A stretch of DNA of 64,000 bases from Alphaproteobacteria bacterium (GCA_900768845.1 CAAGEK010000024.1:3001-67000); one strand, 5' to 3'; shown: positions 8,269 to 11,421, numbered from the stretch's first letter. Notes: generated from the letters alone by a model not told the origin. A program made the numbers and translations.

Positions 8269-9770
8269 CAAACAAAACTGATGAAAAACAAACAAAATTG
8301 AACAATTTGCTGTGGAGTGCCGCTGACGCCGCACGTTCGCATATCGACGCTTCCGTTTTTAAAGACTACATTCTGGTTTTGCTGTTTTTAAAATATCTGT
8401 CTGAGTTGTCAAAAAAGGAAGCGGCGGCATTAAAAGAACGCTACGGCGCGGATGAAGCGGCTCTGGAACGCCGATTGAAAGCGGGACGTTTTTATTTGCC
8501 GAAAGGGGCGTCTTTTGACGAACTGTATGAGCAAAGAACGCAGGACGATTTCGGCGTGCTGATCAATCAGGCTTTGCACAAAATCGAAGATGAAAACAAA
8601 TCGAAACTGGAAAACATTTTCCAATCCGTTGATTTCAACAGCGAAGCGGTTTTGGGAAAGAAAAACAAACGTAATCCGATGTTGGTCGGGCTGTTTGAAG
8701 TTTTTAAATCCGCTGATTTGGATGTTTCGGATCAAGATGTCGTCGGCAACGCGTATATGTATCTGATAGAACGTTTCGGTTCGGACGCGGGTAAGAAAGC
8801 CGGAGAGTTCTTCACGCCGGCGGTGGTGTCCGGATTATTGGCAAAATTAGGCGGAGCGAAAGACGGATACAGGATTTTGGATCCGGCATGCGGTTCCGGC
8901 GGTTTGCTCTTGTTGGCGGGGCACGAAGTCGCTTCCGGAAATTATGCCCTTTTCGGTCAGGAAAGTGTCGGAACGACATATAATATGGCGCGGATGAATA
9001 TGTTTATGCATGGGAAGGATTCTGCGGAAATCGAATGGGGGGACAGCTTGCGCGATCCCGCTTTTGTAGAGTCGGATCGTTTGAAGCAGTTTGATTTAGT
9101 CTTGGCTAATCCGCCGTTTTCGTTGGACAACTGGGGCTTTGACGATCTGCAAAATGACAAATACGCCCGCTTTATGCGTGGTATGCCGCCCAAATCAAAA
9201 GGGGACTACGCTTTTATTTCCCATATGATCGCATCGGCAAAAGAATTTACGGGACGGGTTGCCGTCATCGTGCCGCACGGTGTTTTATTCCGCGGCAGTT
9301 CGGAAGGGCGCATACGGCGGGCGTTGATTGAAGAAAATCTGCTTGACGCCGTGATCGGACTGCCGAAAGGACTGTTTCAGACGACCGACATTCCGGTGGC
9401 GATTTTGATTTTTGACAAGTCAAGGCAGGAAGGCGGTGAAAATCAGGCTCGCAAGGATATAGTGTTCATAGACGCGTCCAATGAATACATCAGCGGCAAG
9501 AAGCAGAACACGTTATCGGACGGGCATATCGAAAAAATTCTGACGACGTATCGGGAACGCAAAGAAATCGAAAAATACTCCCACGTCGCGACGCCGGAAG
9601 AAATCAGTGAAAACGACTATAACCTGAACATTCCGCGCTATGTCGATACGTTTGAGGAGGAAGCGGAAATCGATTTGCACGCGGTGAAATCGGAAATTCA
9701 AAAGATTGAAACCGAACTGGCGGCGGTTCAAAAGCAAATGGACGCGTATTTGAAAGAATTGGGGCTGTGA
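8265..9770 (+). CDS. hsdM: Type I restriction-modification N6-adenine DNA methyltransferase subunit
   Basis: 501 aa. N-terminal HsdM_N region, AdoMet motif I (ILDPACGSGGLLL) and catalytic motif IV (LANPPFSL). Confidence 0.9.
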   Translation: MTNKTDEKQTKLNNLLWSAADAARSHIDASVFKDYILVLLFLKYLSELSKKEAAALKERYGADEAALERRLKAGRFYLPKGASFDELYEQRTQDDFGVLINQALHKIEDENKSKLENIFQSVDFNSEAVLGKKNKRNPMLVGLFEVFKSADLDVSDQDVVGNAYMYLIERFGSDAGKKAGEFFTPAVVSGLLAKLGGAKDGYRILDPACGSGGLLLLAGHEVASGNYALFGQESVGTTYNMARMNMFMHGKDSAEIEWGDSLRDPAFVESDRLKQFDLVLANPPFSLDNWGFDDLQNDKYARFMRGMPPKSKGDYAFISHMIASAKEFTGRVAVIVPHGVLFRGSSEGRIRRALIEENLLDAVIGLPKGLFQTTDIPVAILIFDKSRQEGGENQARKDIVFIDASNEYISGKKQNTLSDGHIEKILTTYRERKEIEKYSHVATPEEISENDYNLNIPRYVDTFEEEAEIDLHAVKSEIQKIETELAAVQKQMDAYLKELGL

Positions 9771-10450
9771 TGGGGAGCGATTTGATTTTATACAGTACCG
9801 CGGACGGGAAAACGAAAATCAGTCTGCAGAAAACCGACGGGACGGTTTGGCTGACCCAAGCGCAAATGGCGGAACTGTTCGACTGTAAGAAACAAAACAT
9901 CAGCCTGCACATTAAAAAAATATTTGACGAAGGTGAATTGGAACAGAATTCAGTTGTCAAGCGTTACTTGACAACTGCCTCTGACGGCAAGGAGTACTCT
10001 ACACTTTTTTATTCTCTTGATATGATTTTGGCGGTCGGTATGCGGGTGCGCTCTGTTCGCGGAACGCAGTTCCGGCAATGGGCGATCGAGCATTTAAAGG
10101 AATACCTTGTCAAAGGGTTTGTTTTGGACGACGACCGCTTAAAAGGATCGGTGCGAAGCGATTATTTTGATGAATTGCTTCAACGGATTCGGGACATTCG
10201 GGCGTCCGCGTTGCGCTTTTATCAAAAAGTCAGAGATTTATTTGTCCTCGCGGTTGACTACAAGGGAAAAGAGGAAGAAACGGCGGAATTTTTTGCAATC
10301 GTTCAAAATAAATTATTATATGCCGTGGCACGGAAAACGGCGGCGGAACTGATTGTCTCCAGAGCCGATCCGTCTATGCCGAATATGAATCTGGGAAAAC
10401 TGCGCCGCGTCGGTTCCGACAAAGGCGGGAAATGGGATGTAATCAAATGA
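9770..10450 (+). CDS. RhuM-family protein (Pfam Virulence_RhuM)
   Basis: The N-terminus LILYSTADGKTKISLQKTDGTVWLTQAQMAELF and C-terminus KTAAELIVSRADPSMPNMNL are characteristic of RhuM proteins commonly embedded in type I RM loci. The ATG at 9770 overlaps the hsdM stop (TGATG). Confidence 0.8.
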   Translation: MGSDLILYSTADGKTKISLQKTDGTVWLTQAQMAELFDCKKQNISLHIKKIFDEGELEQNSVVKRYLTTASDGKEYSTLFYSLDMILAVGMRVRSVRGTQFRQWAIEHLKEYLVKGFVLDDDRLKGSVRSDYFDELLQRIRDIRASALRFYQKVRDLFVLAVDYKGKEEETAEFFAIVQNKLLYAVARKTAAELIVSRADPSMPNMNLGKLRRVGSDKGGKWDVIK

Positions 10451-11421
10451 CGGACGAGATTATAAAATATAATATTGCCGATGAATCTTTTGAAATCCGT
10501 CCCGATTATGAACAGGATACGGTTTGGATGACAAAAGCGGAAATGGCGCATCTGTTCGGGATAGACCGTTCCGGTGTTTCCCGCCACATTTCCAAAGCGT
10601 TTAAGAACAACGAACTGAACAAAAAAAGCAATGTGCAAAAAATGCACATTCCAAATTCGGACAGACCTGTTGAATTTTTTGACTTGGATGCGATTTTATA
10701 CGTCGGATATAAAACGGATTCTCAACGGGCTGTCCAATTCAGGAAATGGGCAAACCGCGTTTTAAAACAATATTTGTTAGAGGGCTTCACTCTTAATCAG
10801 AAAAAATTACAGGAGGAACAGGGGAAAAAATTCTCCGCTTTGCAGAAAGCCGTTGATTCAGTGCAAAGAGGGATAAAACGCCAAATAACGTCTTTAGACG
10901 AAGCGGACATGTTAATGCGGATTTTATCCGATTTTTCGCAGGGATTAAAGTTGTTGGACGATTTTGACAACAATGCGTTAGATGTACGCGGAAAAACGGA
11001 CAAAGAAGCCGTAAAAATCGAAGTCGCCGAATTTTTGACGGTGATTGATAAAATGAAACCGCAGTTCGGATCGGACGTGTTCGCCAATCCGAAAGACGAT
11101 GGTTTTAACAGTTCCGTCAATCAGATTTATCAAACATTCGGCGGGCAGGATTGCTATCCGACATTGGAAGAAAAAGCGGCAATGTTGCTTTACCTGATTA
11201 CCAAAAATCACAGCTTTTCGGACGGGAATAAACGCATCGCGGCACAATGTTTTTTGTATTTTCTGGAAAAGAACGGGCTTCTGTATCACCACGGACAAAC
11301 GTTGATCGACAATGCGACGTTGGCGGCGGTAACGGTTTTGATTGCTGAAAGCAGACCGGATGAAATGGAAACAATCAAACAAATGGTTGTCAGTATTTTG
11401 AACAGGAATAAAATGCAATAA
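10447..11421 (+). CDS. Fusion protein with an N-terminal RhuM-like domain and a C-terminal Fic/Doc (death-on-curing) toxin-like domain
   Basis: The start overlaps the preceding stop (ATGA). The N-terminus IIKYNIADESFEIRPDYEQDTVWMTKAEMAHLF parallels the RhuM N-domain. The C-terminus carries the Doc/Fic core motif HSFSDGNKRIAAQ (HxFx[DE]GNKR). Confidence 0.75.
   Translation: MTDEIIKYNIADESFEIRPDYEQDTVWMTKAEMAHLFGIDRSGVSRHISKAFKNNELNKKSNVQKMHIPNSDRPVEFFDLDAILYVGYKTDSQRAVQFRKWANRVLKQYLLEGFTLNQKKLQEEQGKKFSALQKAVDSVQRGIKRQITSLDEADMLMRILSDFSQGLKLLDDFDNNALDVRGKTDKEAVKIEVAEFLTVIDKMKPQFGSDVFANPKDDGFNSSVNQIYQTFGGQDCYPTLEEKAAMLLYLITKNHSFSDGNKRIAAQCFLYFLEKNGLLYHHGQTLIDNATLAAVTVLIAESRPDEMETIKQMVVSILNRNKMQ

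What the first reader, a model, noticed from the sequence alone, without database searches (positions are those of the whole stretch)
9770..11421. Tandem RhuM paralogs, the second fused to a Doc/Fic toxin domain
RhuM-like DNA-binding N-domains occur twice in a row. The second ORF (10447-11421) ends in a Doc-type motif, HSFSDGNKRIAAQ. Doc toxins phosphorylate EF-Tu and normally need a Phd antitoxin. Here no Phd-like gene is present, and the RhuM-like N-domain could act as a cis-regulatory or auto-inhibitory module. The upstream stand-alone RhuM is translationally coupled to it (ATGA) and could be the trans-acting partner.
Basis: partly seen in the sequence, partly recalled or inferred. Interest (0 to 1): 0.55.

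Follow-up and report, generated by a model that had tools for sequence, protein, structure and literature searches.

The report
Known RhuM-Doc gene beside RhuM remnant
Inside a type I restriction-modification operon of a gut alphaproteobacterium sits an intact member of the already catalogued RhuM/Fic/DOC candidate anti-phage family, and the "RhuM paralog" in front of it is the decaying stump of a neighbouring gene left by a 1.4-kb deletion, not a partner, so the finding is real but ordinary.

Summary
ORF1 (9770-10450) is RhuM-like. ORF2 (10447-11421) has a RhuM-type N-domain plus a Fic/Doc domain with an exact Doc kinase motif (HSFSDGNKR). The two genes overlap by ATGA, and no Phd-like gene is nearby.

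ORF2 is a full-length member of a large, already named single-gene family: NCBI "virulence protein RhuM/Fic/DOC family protein", PADLOC candidate PDC-S23. The fusion and its place in R-M operons were described in 2013. The gene is under strong purifying selection (dN/dS 0.06), and the Doc motif is invariant in 46 relatives.

ORF1 is not a partner.
- In a strain with the same chromosomal site, hsdM is followed by an intact 336-aa RhuM gene and a Fic-wHTH gene.
- The window has a 1,379-bp deletion that fuses RhuM codon 208 to the last 18 Fic-wHTH codons.
- That 18-codon relic, not RhuM, supplies the ATGA overlap.
- ORF1 evolves under relaxed constraint.
- None of 80 other loci of the family has a second RhuM gene.

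The most likely function of ORF2 is a self-contained, cis-controlled Doc-type kinase effector that backs up the R-M system. This is inferred, not shown. Interest is low.

The parts
7651..8268 (+). Half-size hsdS (one target-recognition domain), first gene of the operon
   Evidence: Pfam Methylase_S 2.3e-9; PADLOC Specificity_I; overlaps hsdM by ATGA
8265..9770 (+). hsdM, type I R-M methyltransferase
   Evidence: Pfam N6_Mtase 2.4e-98 and HsdM_N; TIGR00497 hsdM 272 bits, above the 242.75 cut-off. Its stop codon shares one base with the ORF1 ATG (TGATG)
9770..10393 (+). ORF1, RhuM-derived part (codons 1-208): winged-helix N-domain plus the first part of the RhuM C-domain
   Evidence: 93% identical to residues 1-208 of the 333-aa RhuM P0122. 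blastn homology to L097 ends at window 10393. Pfam RhuM profile covered only over 1-155 of 252
10394..10450 (+). ORF1 tail GKLRRVGSDKGGKWDVIK*: relic of the 3' end of a Fic-wHTH gene, first copy. It carries the stop that overlaps the ORF2 start
   Evidence: Window 10393-10443 matches L097 9013-9063, the last 51 nt of the Fic+HTH_24 gene, at 88%. Aligned with the intact Fic-wHTH gene end of L089. Direct repeat D1
10447..11421 (+). ORF2, intact RhuM/Fic/DOC family protein (PADLOC PDC-S23), 324 aa
   Evidence: PDC-S23 1.7e-111 over profile 2-326 of 327; more than 8000 homologues and the NCBI family name; dN/dS 0.06
10447..10782 (+). ORF2 N-domain (about residues 1-112): winged-helix, Ant/Bro-N-like DNA-binding module shared with RhuM
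10783..11016 (+). ORF2 helical linker (about residues 113-190) with the invariant segment F163-x2-G166-L167-x2-L170-D171-x2-D174
   Evidence: Alignments A1 and A2; helices in the AF2 model, at low confidence
11017..11418 (+). ORF2 Doc-type Fic domain (about residues 191-324)
   Evidence: Pfam Fic 42 bits; PHROG Doc-like toxin 7e-17; PDB Doc hits
11209..11235 (+). Catalytic motif HSFSDGNKR (residues 255-263)
   Evidence: Regex match; invariant in 46 relatives; Doc consensus from PMC4177925
11422..11514 (+). Second relic of the Fic-wHTH 3' end (reads ..ADGIKRNLKKLKKAGKLRRVGLDKGNK), non-coding. It forms a 22-nt exact direct repeat with 10393-10414 and marks a cassette boundary
   Evidence: Repeat D1; pattern found twice against 0 expected; 81% identical to L097 8973-9045; alignment A5; GC falls from about 45% to 27-33% here
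11615..12991 (+). ORF3, 458-aa protein with a coiled coil and transmembrane segments, of unknown family, in the same hsdM-hsdS slot
   Evidence: No Pfam or NCBIfam family; weak PHROG 34659 hit; 49% identical homologue in L001
13024..14298 (+). hsdS (two target-recognition domains)
   Evidence: Pfam Methylase_S 2.4e-45, two stretches
14480..15124 (+). Abi_2-like / PD-T4-5-like gene
   Evidence: PADLOC PD-T4-5 1.1e-9; Pfam Abi_2 22.7 bits, below the gathering score of 25.6
15140..18322 (+). hsdR
   Evidence: Pfam HSDR_N, SWI2_SNF2, ResIII and T1R_D3-like; PADLOC REase_I 9.5e-121
18312..19025 (+). YgjP-like metallopeptidase, last gene of the operon
   Evidence: Pfam YgjP-like 2.2e-46; same position in L085 and L086

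Best explanation
What it is (confidence about 0.95).

The stretch lies in the variable slot between hsdM and hsdS of a type I R-M operon (7651-19025). The organism is a gut alphaproteobacterium related to 'Acetobacter sp. CAG:977'.

ORF2 is an intact member of the widespread, horizontally mobile, single-gene RhuM/Fic/DOC family (PADLOC candidate PDC-S23). It has three parts:
- an N-terminal winged-helix DNA-binding domain of the RhuM/Ant type;
- a helical linker of about 80 residues;
- a C-terminal Doc-type Fic domain with the kinase-type motif HxFxDGNKR.

ORF1 is a decaying remnant. A 1.38-kb deletion fused codon 208 of a 333-336-aa RhuM gene, in frame, to the last 18 codons of the neighbouring Fic-wHTH gene. 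A second relic of that Fic-wHTH 3' end lies just after ORF2. This gives the 22-nt direct repeat that brackets ORF2.

How it most likely works (inferred, confidence about 0.4).

RhuM-Doc is co-transcribed with the R-M genes as a second-line, abortive-infection-type effector, in the way PrrC sits in EcoprrI.
- It is kept silent in cis, because no partner gene is conserved.
- The exchangeable N-domain senses a nucleic-acid or phage cue.
- The Doc domain then phosphorylates EF-Tu or another translational GTPase and stops translation.

Shown here: domains, motif, selection, operon context, absence of a partner, and the origin of ORF1.
Inferred: kinase activity, target, trigger, and autoinhibition.
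For: Identity of ORF2:
- PDC-S23 1.7e-111 over the full length; Pfam RhuM and Fic.
- More than 8000 homologues, some named 'virulence protein RhuM/Fic/DOC family protein'.
- At least 514 species genomes from many phyla and one archaeon carry a relative.

Likely an active enzyme:
- The Doc motif is exact and invariant.
- The lysine at motif position 8 marks kinases (PMC4177925).
- dN/dS is 0.06.

N-domain:
- PHROG Ant 1e-5.
- The N-domain and the linker+Doc part recombine independently. P0003 is 32% identical in the N part and 91% in the C part.

R-M embedding:
- 24 of 71 upstream neighbours are HsdM and 11 of 64 downstream neighbours are HsdS.
- The fusion and its slot in R-M operons are described in PMC3710099.
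- A RhuM-only relative (PDC-S05) protected E. coli from T7, T5 and T4 (bioRxiv 10.1101/2024.09.26.614923).

No partner:
- 0 of 80 loci have a second RhuM gene.
- No conserved neighbour family other than R-M genes and a recombinase-like family.

ORF1 as a remnant:
- trace its origin.
- Window against L004: 8 non-synonymous and 6 synonymous changes. This rejects omega <= 0.08 (p <= 0.005) and is compatible with neutrality (p = 0.07).
- ORF2's 90% cluster also holds many fragments of 91-110 aa.
Against: - No experiment on any RhuM-Doc (PDC-S23) protein was found in the library. Kinase activity, target and anti-phage role are extrapolated from P1 and Salmonella Doc and from gene context.
- ORF2 scores below the curated cut-off of the Doc toxin model TIGR01550 (35.3 against 38.65 bits).
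- The AF2 model of the Doc half is unreliable (pLDDT 40-55), so neither the fold nor any docking of the linker could be checked.
- Only about one third of relatives sit next to hsdM, so a functional link to R-M is not obligatory.
- ORF1 is still an open frame coupled to hsdM. Its constraint is relaxed but not proven neutral.
Confidence: 0.65

Rival explanations
1. RhuM-Doc is a Doc toxin, and the upstream, translationally coupled RhuM (ORF1) is its trans-acting antitoxin-like partner.
For: ATGA overlap. The two N-domains are 39% identical, so they could share a ligand or form heteromers. No Phd is present. RhuM and RhuM-Doc, or their remnants, co-occur in this clade: window, L001/2 and L085-88.
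Against: - ORF1 is a deletion-fusion product.
- The overlap comes from the Fic-wHTH relic and persists where no upstream gene exists.
- 0 of 80 other loci have a second RhuM gene.
- Each related locus keeps only one of the two genes intact. L085-88 have an intact RhuM and a dead RhuM-Doc. L001/2 and the window have the reverse.
- ORF1 is under relaxed constraint.
Confidence: 0.04
2. RhuM-Doc is not a suicide toxin. It is a modifier of non-self or R-M proteins. For example, it might phosphorylate a phage protein such as an anti-restriction factor, or tune HsdR/HsdM activity. The N-domain would place it on DNA beside the R-M complex.
For: Frequent position directly after hsdM. DNA-binding N-domain. 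No antitoxin is needed, which is easiest to explain if the protein is not toxic to the host.
Against: All characterised Doc-motif enzymes target EF-Tu (PMC4177925; PMC9207808). Two thirds of relatives are not next to R-M genes. Frequent loss of the Doc domain in this lineage suggests a cost to the host.
Confidence: 0.2
3. RhuM-Doc is a selfish addiction module. It would be a single-chain toxin-antitoxin that stabilises the R-M/defence island rather than defending against phage.
For: Doc is the classic plasmid-addiction toxin. The family is highly mobile across phyla and found on plasmids.
Against: A single polypeptide cannot give the differential stability of toxin and antitoxin that addiction needs. 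Frequent decay of the gene in situ argues against strong addiction.
Confidence: 0.08
4. ORF2 is an inactive pseudo-Fic relic.
For: Its surroundings are full of gene relics. It scores below the TIGR01550 cut-off.
Against: Full-length match to the family profile. Invariant catalytic motif. dN/dS 0.06 with dS 0.56.
Confidence: 0.03

Closest known systems
NCBI 'virulence protein RhuM/Fic/DOC family protein' = PADLOC phage-defence candidate PDC-S23
   Same: Same architecture over the full length (profile 2-326 of 327, E 1.7e-111). Same invariant Doc motif. Same frequent position after hsdM.
   Different: Nothing of substance. This copy is 94% identical to other metagenomic copies. The family itself has no tested function.
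Doc toxin of the Phd-Doc type II toxin-antitoxin system (phage P1, Salmonella)
   Same: Motif HxFx(D/N)(A/G)NKR with the kinase-defining lysine. Best solved-structure matches (9vzc, 3k33).
   Different: About 190 extra N-terminal residues (wHTH domain plus helical linker). No Phd gene. Below the TIGR01550 cut-off. Embedded in an R-M operon instead of a two-gene TA operon.
RhuM family (Pfam PF13310; PADLOC PDC-S05; Salmonella RhuM)
   Same: ORF1 residues 1-208, and the ORF2 N-domain plus the conserved junction (FRxWA..LKxYL). Same slot in R-M operons. One PDC-S05 gene was shown to protect against T7, T5 and T4.
   Different: ORF1 lacks the C-terminal 125 residues or so and ends in a foreign 18-aa tail. 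ORF2 replaces the RhuM C-domain by linker plus Doc.
PrrC anticodon nuclease embedded in the EcoprrI type I R-M locus
   Same: A latent translation-targeting effector encoded between hsd genes. This is the working analogy for how ORF2 acts. RhuM and Doc genes were noted in such loci (PMC3710099).
   Different: Unrelated protein (ABC-ATPase plus HEPN RNase). Masking by the R-M complex and triggering by a phage anti-restriction peptide are demonstrated for PrrC only (established knowledge, not tested here).
Fic-wHTH proteins encoded after hsdM (L097 8027-9073, L089 350-1399)
   Same: They occupy the same slot in sister strains. Their 3' end is the source of the two relics that flank ORF2.
   Different: Canonical Fic motif HPF(A/G)EGNTR (AMPylase-like type). 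The winged helix is C-terminal, not N-terminal. No RhuM module.

Membership tests
RhuM/Fic/DOC family (PADLOC PDC-S23) | Full-length match to the family profile | tested here: met
   PDLC04965 E 1.7e-111, protein 2-321 on profile 2-326 of 327
RhuM/Fic/DOC family (PADLOC PDC-S23) | RhuM-type N-domain followed by a Fic/Doc domain in one polypeptide | tested here: met
   Pfam PF13310 64.4 bits (gathering score 33.7) and PF02661 42.1 bits (gathering score 24). All 120 listed homologues carry both domains
RhuM/Fic/DOC family (PADLOC PDC-S23) | Anti-phage activity | not testable with these tools
   No experimental report for PDC-S23 was found. Only a PDC-S05 relative has been tested
Fic/Doc superfamily (PF02661) | Nine-residue active-site motif with the catalytic His | tested here: met
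   HSFSDGNKR at residues 255-263, invariant in 46 sequences
Fic/Doc superfamily (PF02661) | Alpha-helical Fic core fold | tested here: inconclusive
Doc toxin of Phd-Doc TA systems (TIGR01550) | Score above the curated cut-off of the Doc_P1 model | tested here: not met
   35.3 bits against a cut-off of 38.65
Doc toxin of Phd-Doc TA systems (TIGR01550) | Lysine at motif position 8 (kinase type) | tested here: met
   K262; consensus from PMC4177925
Doc toxin of Phd-Doc TA systems (TIGR01550) | Adjacent Phd/YefM antitoxin gene | tested here: not met
   None in the operon. No conserved small neighbour in 80 loci. The linker shows no sequence similarity to Phd
Doc toxin of Phd-Doc TA systems (TIGR01550) | Phosphorylates EF-Tu and arrests growth | not testable with these tools
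   Needs an expression and kinase assay
Class I-III Fic proteins with an inhibitory helix | Motif (S/T)xxxE(G/N) | tested here: not met
   No match in ORF1 or ORF2
RhuM family (PF13310 / PDC-S05), ORF1 | Match above the gathering score | tested here: met
   220.6 bits against 33.7
RhuM family (PF13310 / PDC-S05), ORF1 | Complete domain (profile about 252 positions; proteins of 330-346 aa) | tested here: not met
   Profile positions 1-155 of 252 only; 11-223 of 346. Homology to 333-aa RhuM proteins stops at residue 208
R-M-embedded latent toxin (PrrC-like arrangement) | Encoded inside a type I hsd operon on the same strand | tested here: met
   Order hsdM-ORF1-ORF2-ORF3-hsdS-Abi_2-like-hsdR. 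24 of 71 relatives lie directly after hsdM
R-M-embedded latent toxin (PrrC-like arrangement) | Held inactive by the R-M complex and released by a phage anti-restriction factor | not testable with these tools
   Needs biochemistry and phage assays

The most novel reading that the evidence does not exclude
RhuM-Doc is a single-chain toxin-antitoxin. In this reading the invariant amphipathic linker segment (F163..G166-L167..L170-D171..D174) plugs the Doc groove in cis, as the C-terminal helices of Phd do in trans. The freely exchangeable winged-helix N-domain is a phage-cue sensor whose engagement releases the plug, giving a one-protein, PrrC-like translational kill switch riding in R-M operons. 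A related second possibility concerns the conserved 3' end of the Fic-wHTH gene. It recurs at cassette junctions in four related loci and may act as a recombination anchor that lets strains swap effector cassettes inside the operon.
Probability: 0.2. Interest if true: 0.5.

Novelty: already known. Interest (0 to 1): 0.17.

Why it matters
As it stands, little is new. The fusion, its lack of a Phd partner and its place in R-M operons have been in the literature since 2013 and are in annotation pipelines and PADLOC.

The useful outcome is negative. The tandem 'paralog' and the ATGA coupling are by-products of a deletion, so they should not be read as a two-gene system.

Two modest points of value remain:
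- The family is large (at least 514 species), strongly conserved and experimentally untouched. A Doc-type kinase that needs no antitoxin is a clean test case for how Fic/Doc enzymes can be controlled in cis.
- Sister strains with 97-98% identical flanks carry different effector sets between hsdM and hsdR, and the relics of earlier occupants are still readable. This is a well-resolved example of cassette turnover inside a type I R-M operon.

Tried and rejected
2. Phd-like element in the linker. phmmer of residues 137-210 against PDB at E <= 10 found only a designed protein. Rejected as evidence.
3. Canonical Fic inhibitory motif (S/T)xxxE(G/N). Absent.
4. Solved structure for RhuM. None.
5. Owner of the 18-aa tail. 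I first suspected the AlbA_2 gene next to RhuM in L085-88, but its C-terminus is unrelated. A metagenome scan with the tail's DNA pattern then found intact Fic-wHTH genes ending in it. The syntenic L097 confirmed this.
6. Promoter and terminator scan of 7000-19500. Counts were no different from shuffles (27 against 23.9; 19 against 14.7), so it was uninformative. The only notable sites were terminator-like hairpins at both operon ends, 7560-7579 and 19025-39.
7. dN/dS of ORF1 against L097. Invalid because of an indel in the ungapped comparison. L086 and L004 were used instead.
8. Exact order of the events that produced two Fic-wHTH relics around ORF2 (tandem duplication or repeated recombination). 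Not resolved.
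Full report
**Observation**

The region 7651-19025 on the + strand is one tightly packed type I restriction-modification operon. Its gene order is:
- a half-size hsdS (7651-8268)
- hsdM (8265-9770)
- ORF1 (9770-10450)
- ORF2 (10447-11421)
- a 458-aa ORF without a family (11615-12991)
- hsdS (13024-14298)
- an Abi_2-like gene (14480-15124)
- hsdR (15140-18322)
- a YgjP-like peptidase (18312-19025)

ORF1 matches Pfam Virulence_RhuM at 2.8e-65. ORF2 matches Virulence_RhuM at 1.3e-17 in its first 130 residues, and Fic at 1.6e-10 in its last third. PHROGs calls that last third 'Doc-like toxin' at 7e-17. 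The best solved relatives are Doc proteins.

The motif HSFSDGNKR (residues 255-263) fits the published Doc consensus HxFx(D/N)(A/G)NKR. The lysine at position 8 distinguishes Doc kinases from AMPylating Fic enzymes (PMC4177925). The ATGA overlap is present.

**What ORF2 is**

ORF2 matches the PADLOC model PDC-S23 at 1.7e-111 over the whole profile, positions 2-326 of 327. A search of 5.8 billion proteins hit the ceiling of 8000 relatives. All 120 listed carry both Pfam domains, and named ones are 'virulence protein RhuM/Fic/DOC family protein'. PGAP gives the same name to copies on Vibrio, Legionella, Aeromonas and Shewanella plasmids.

At least 514 species-level genomes encode a relative. They include Alphaproteobacteria, Melainabacteria, Firmicutes, Bacteroidales, Elusimicrobia, Synergistaceae and a Methanomethylophilaceae archaeon.

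All seven specified residues of the Doc motif are invariant in 46 relatives of 54-93% identity. Against the 94%-identical copy in L001, dS is 0.56 and dN/dS is 0.06. ORF2 is an intact gene under strong purifying selection, not a pseudo-Fic.

Anantharaman et al. 2013 (PMC3710099) already described RhuM-like genes in the slot of the DOC toxin in R-M operons. [quoted passage not shown] The architecture and its context are therefore known.

**Domain anatomy of ORF2**

The AF2 model was poor overall, with mean pLDDT 58. It was confident for residues 25-105, with pLDDT 80-91.

Both N-domains also hit the PHROG family of anti-repressor Ant at about 1e-5. Bro-N is hit weakly, at 0.0077, below its gathering score.

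Residues 113-190 are helical and contain an invariant segment F163..G166-L167..L170-D171..D174. Residues 191-324 are the Doc domain.

The N-domain and the linker+Doc part recombine independently. P0003 is 32% identical to ORF2 in the N part and 91% in the rest. P0001 is 100% and 91%.

**What ORF1 is**

ORF1 covers only positions 1-155 of 252 of the Pfam profile, and 11-223 of 346 of PDC-S05. It is 93% identical to 333-aa RhuM proteins over residues 1-208 and unrelated after that. Its last 18 residues, GKLRRVGSDKGGKWDVIK, are encoded by the first arm of a direct repeat. The repeat is exact over 22 nt and 76% identical over 50 nt. Its second arm lies just after the ORF2 stop. The degenerate pattern occurs twice, against 0 expected.

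A metagenome scan with the tail's DNA pattern found intact genes that end in this sequence. One is a 349-aa Fic (HPFAEGNTR) plus winged-helix (HTH_24) gene directly after an hsdM that is 69% identical to the window's.

The decisive comparison is with L097/L098. These carry the same chromosomal site (RF3, MalQ, half-hsdS, hsdM ... hsdR), with flanks 97-98% identical to the window. There, hsdM is followed by an intact 336-aa RhuM and an intact 348-aa Fic+HTH_24 gene.

blastn against L097 gives these results:
- Homology runs from the flank to window 10393 (L097 7633).
- It then jumps to L097 9013-9063, the last 51 nt of the Fic-wHTH gene.
- Window 11425-11497 matches L097 8973-9045 a second time.

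Relative to L097, the window has therefore lost 1,379 bp. This loss fuses RhuM codon 208 in frame to the end of Fic-wHTH.

The ATGA overlap belongs to the junction between the relic and RhuM-Doc. The same junction precedes the intact RhuM-Doc gene in L002, where the upstream frame is only 19 codons.

**Is ORF1 a partner?**

- In 80 species-level loci of the family, tblastn with ORF1 finds no RhuM gene other than the N-domain of RhuM-Doc itself.
- Clustering of all flanking ORFs finds only HsdM (31 loci), HsdS (26), HsdR (16+5) and a recombinase-like family (15).
- Pfam scans of the nearest neighbours find HsdM in 24 of 71 upstream genes and HsdS in 11 of 64 downstream genes. Neither RhuM nor Phd is among the listed families.
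- Within the window's own clade, each locus keeps only one of the two genes intact. L085-88 have an intact RhuM and an internally deleted RhuM-Doc. L001/2 have an intact RhuM-Doc and a 119-aa RhuM stump downstream of it. The window has an intact RhuM-Doc and the chimeric ORF1.
- Between the window and L004, which both carry the chimera, ORF1 has 15 differences in 681 nt against 1 in 975 nt for ORF2 (Fisher p = 1.5e-5).
- The ORF1 changes are 8 non-synonymous and 6 synonymous. This rejects omega <= 0.08 (p <= 0.005) and is compatible with neutrality (p = 0.07).

ORF1 is therefore best read as a decaying remnant. The trans-partner idea is given about 4%.

**Mechanism**

Shown here:
- a conserved Doc-type active site
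- a DNA-binding-type, exchangeable N-domain
- no conserved partner
- frequent co-transcription with type I R-M
- high mobility
- frequent local decay; the 90% cluster of ORF2 contains many fragments of 91-110 aa and a 287-aa form without Doc

Inferred:
- The protein is a self-contained, cis-controlled effector that backs up restriction.
- The N-domain senses an infection cue.
- The Doc domain phosphorylates EF-Tu, as P1 and Salmonella Doc do (PMC4177925; PMC9207808).
- The closest working analogy is PrrC in EcoprrI.

A RhuM-only relative (PDC-S05) lowered plating of T7 and T5 about 1000-fold and of T4 about 10-fold (bioRxiv 10.1101/2024.09.26.614923). No test of PDC-S23 was found.

Neither the canonical Fic inhibitory motif nor any Phd-like sequence is present. 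How the enzyme is held off is unknown.

**Context and turnover**

The organism is a gut alphaproteobacterium. Its RF3 falls in the 90% cluster of 'Acetobacter sp. CAG:977'. GC falls from about 45% to 27-33% right at the second Fic-wHTH relic, where ORF3 begins.

Sister strains carry different cassettes at this site:
- L004 has the same ORF2, with 1 nt difference. After a complete relic it continues into a different gene.
- L097 has three small ORFs and a 313-aa gene instead of ORF3 and the Abi_2-like gene.
- L001 has a T5orf172 gene, an ORF3 homologue, a 313-aa gene and a SocA_Panacea gene.

The slot between hsdM and hsdR is a small hot spot of effector exchange. The Fic-wHTH 3' end recurs at its junctions.

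**Verdict**

The partner part is not supported. The object as a whole is an already catalogued family in its usual setting. Interest is low, at 0.17.

Noticed in passing
window 11615-12991 (+): ORF3 is a 458-aa protein with an N-terminal coiled coil and C-terminal transmembrane segments. GC is 27-31%, against about 45% for its neighbours. It has no Pfam or NCBIfam family, and only weak hits to PHROG 34659 (1e-6) and to SMC/JetC coiled coils. A 49%-identical homologue sits in the same place, just before hsdS, in L001. It may be another embedded effector.
   Followed up: partly
window 14480-15124 (+): A 214-aa gene lies between hsdS and hsdR. It hits PADLOC PD-T4-5 (1.1e-9) and Pfam Abi_2 (22.7 bits, below the gathering score). 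The syntenic strain L097 lacks it and has a 313-aa gene there instead.
   Followed up: partly
window 10393-10450 and 11422-11514; L002 7820-8000; L086 9003-9219; L004 1750-1856: Relics of the 3' end of a Fic-wHTH gene recur at cassette junctions in four related operons. In L002 and L086 the relic follows a compound stump: the first 9 Fic-wHTH codons (MTHFEEYKK), then an internally deleted RhuM-Doc. This suggests repeated recombination or replacement at this gene end. The order of events is unresolved.
   Followed up: partly
P0003, P0004, P0006, P0055 (residues 1-90); L086 9220-9490: An N-terminal module of about 90 aa (M.KR.AKKILT..E.ALAKAMFLYT..NNQQILSYF...) is shared by longer RhuM-Doc variants of 417-425 aa and by an AlbA_2 protein encoded in the same R-M slot. 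It may be a common adaptor or regulatory domain of R-M-embedded effectors.
   Followed up: no
window 9770-11421 compared with L004 99-1750: Divergence changes sharply between two strains: 15 differences in ORF1 against 1 in ORF2. This implies recent recombinational exchange of the RhuM-Doc cassette between strains.
   Followed up: partly
plasmid hits H10 and H11 ([Eubacterium] eligens / Lachnospira eligens): The region homologous to ORF2 is annotated there as two genes, 'RhuM family protein' and 'Fic family protein'. This is either a natural split or a frameshifted copy of the fusion.
   Followed up: no
window 7651-8268 and 13024-14298: A half-size hsdS lies upstream of hsdM, in addition to the full hsdS. 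No convincing inverted repeats link them in this window. A recombinase-like family lies near the RhuM-Doc gene in 15 of 80 related loci.
   Followed up: no
window 19323-22822 and 23868-25148: Just downstream of the operon lie a C39-peptidase ABC exporter with a HlyD partner (a bacteriocin-type export pair) and an ankyrin-repeat protein.
   Followed up: no
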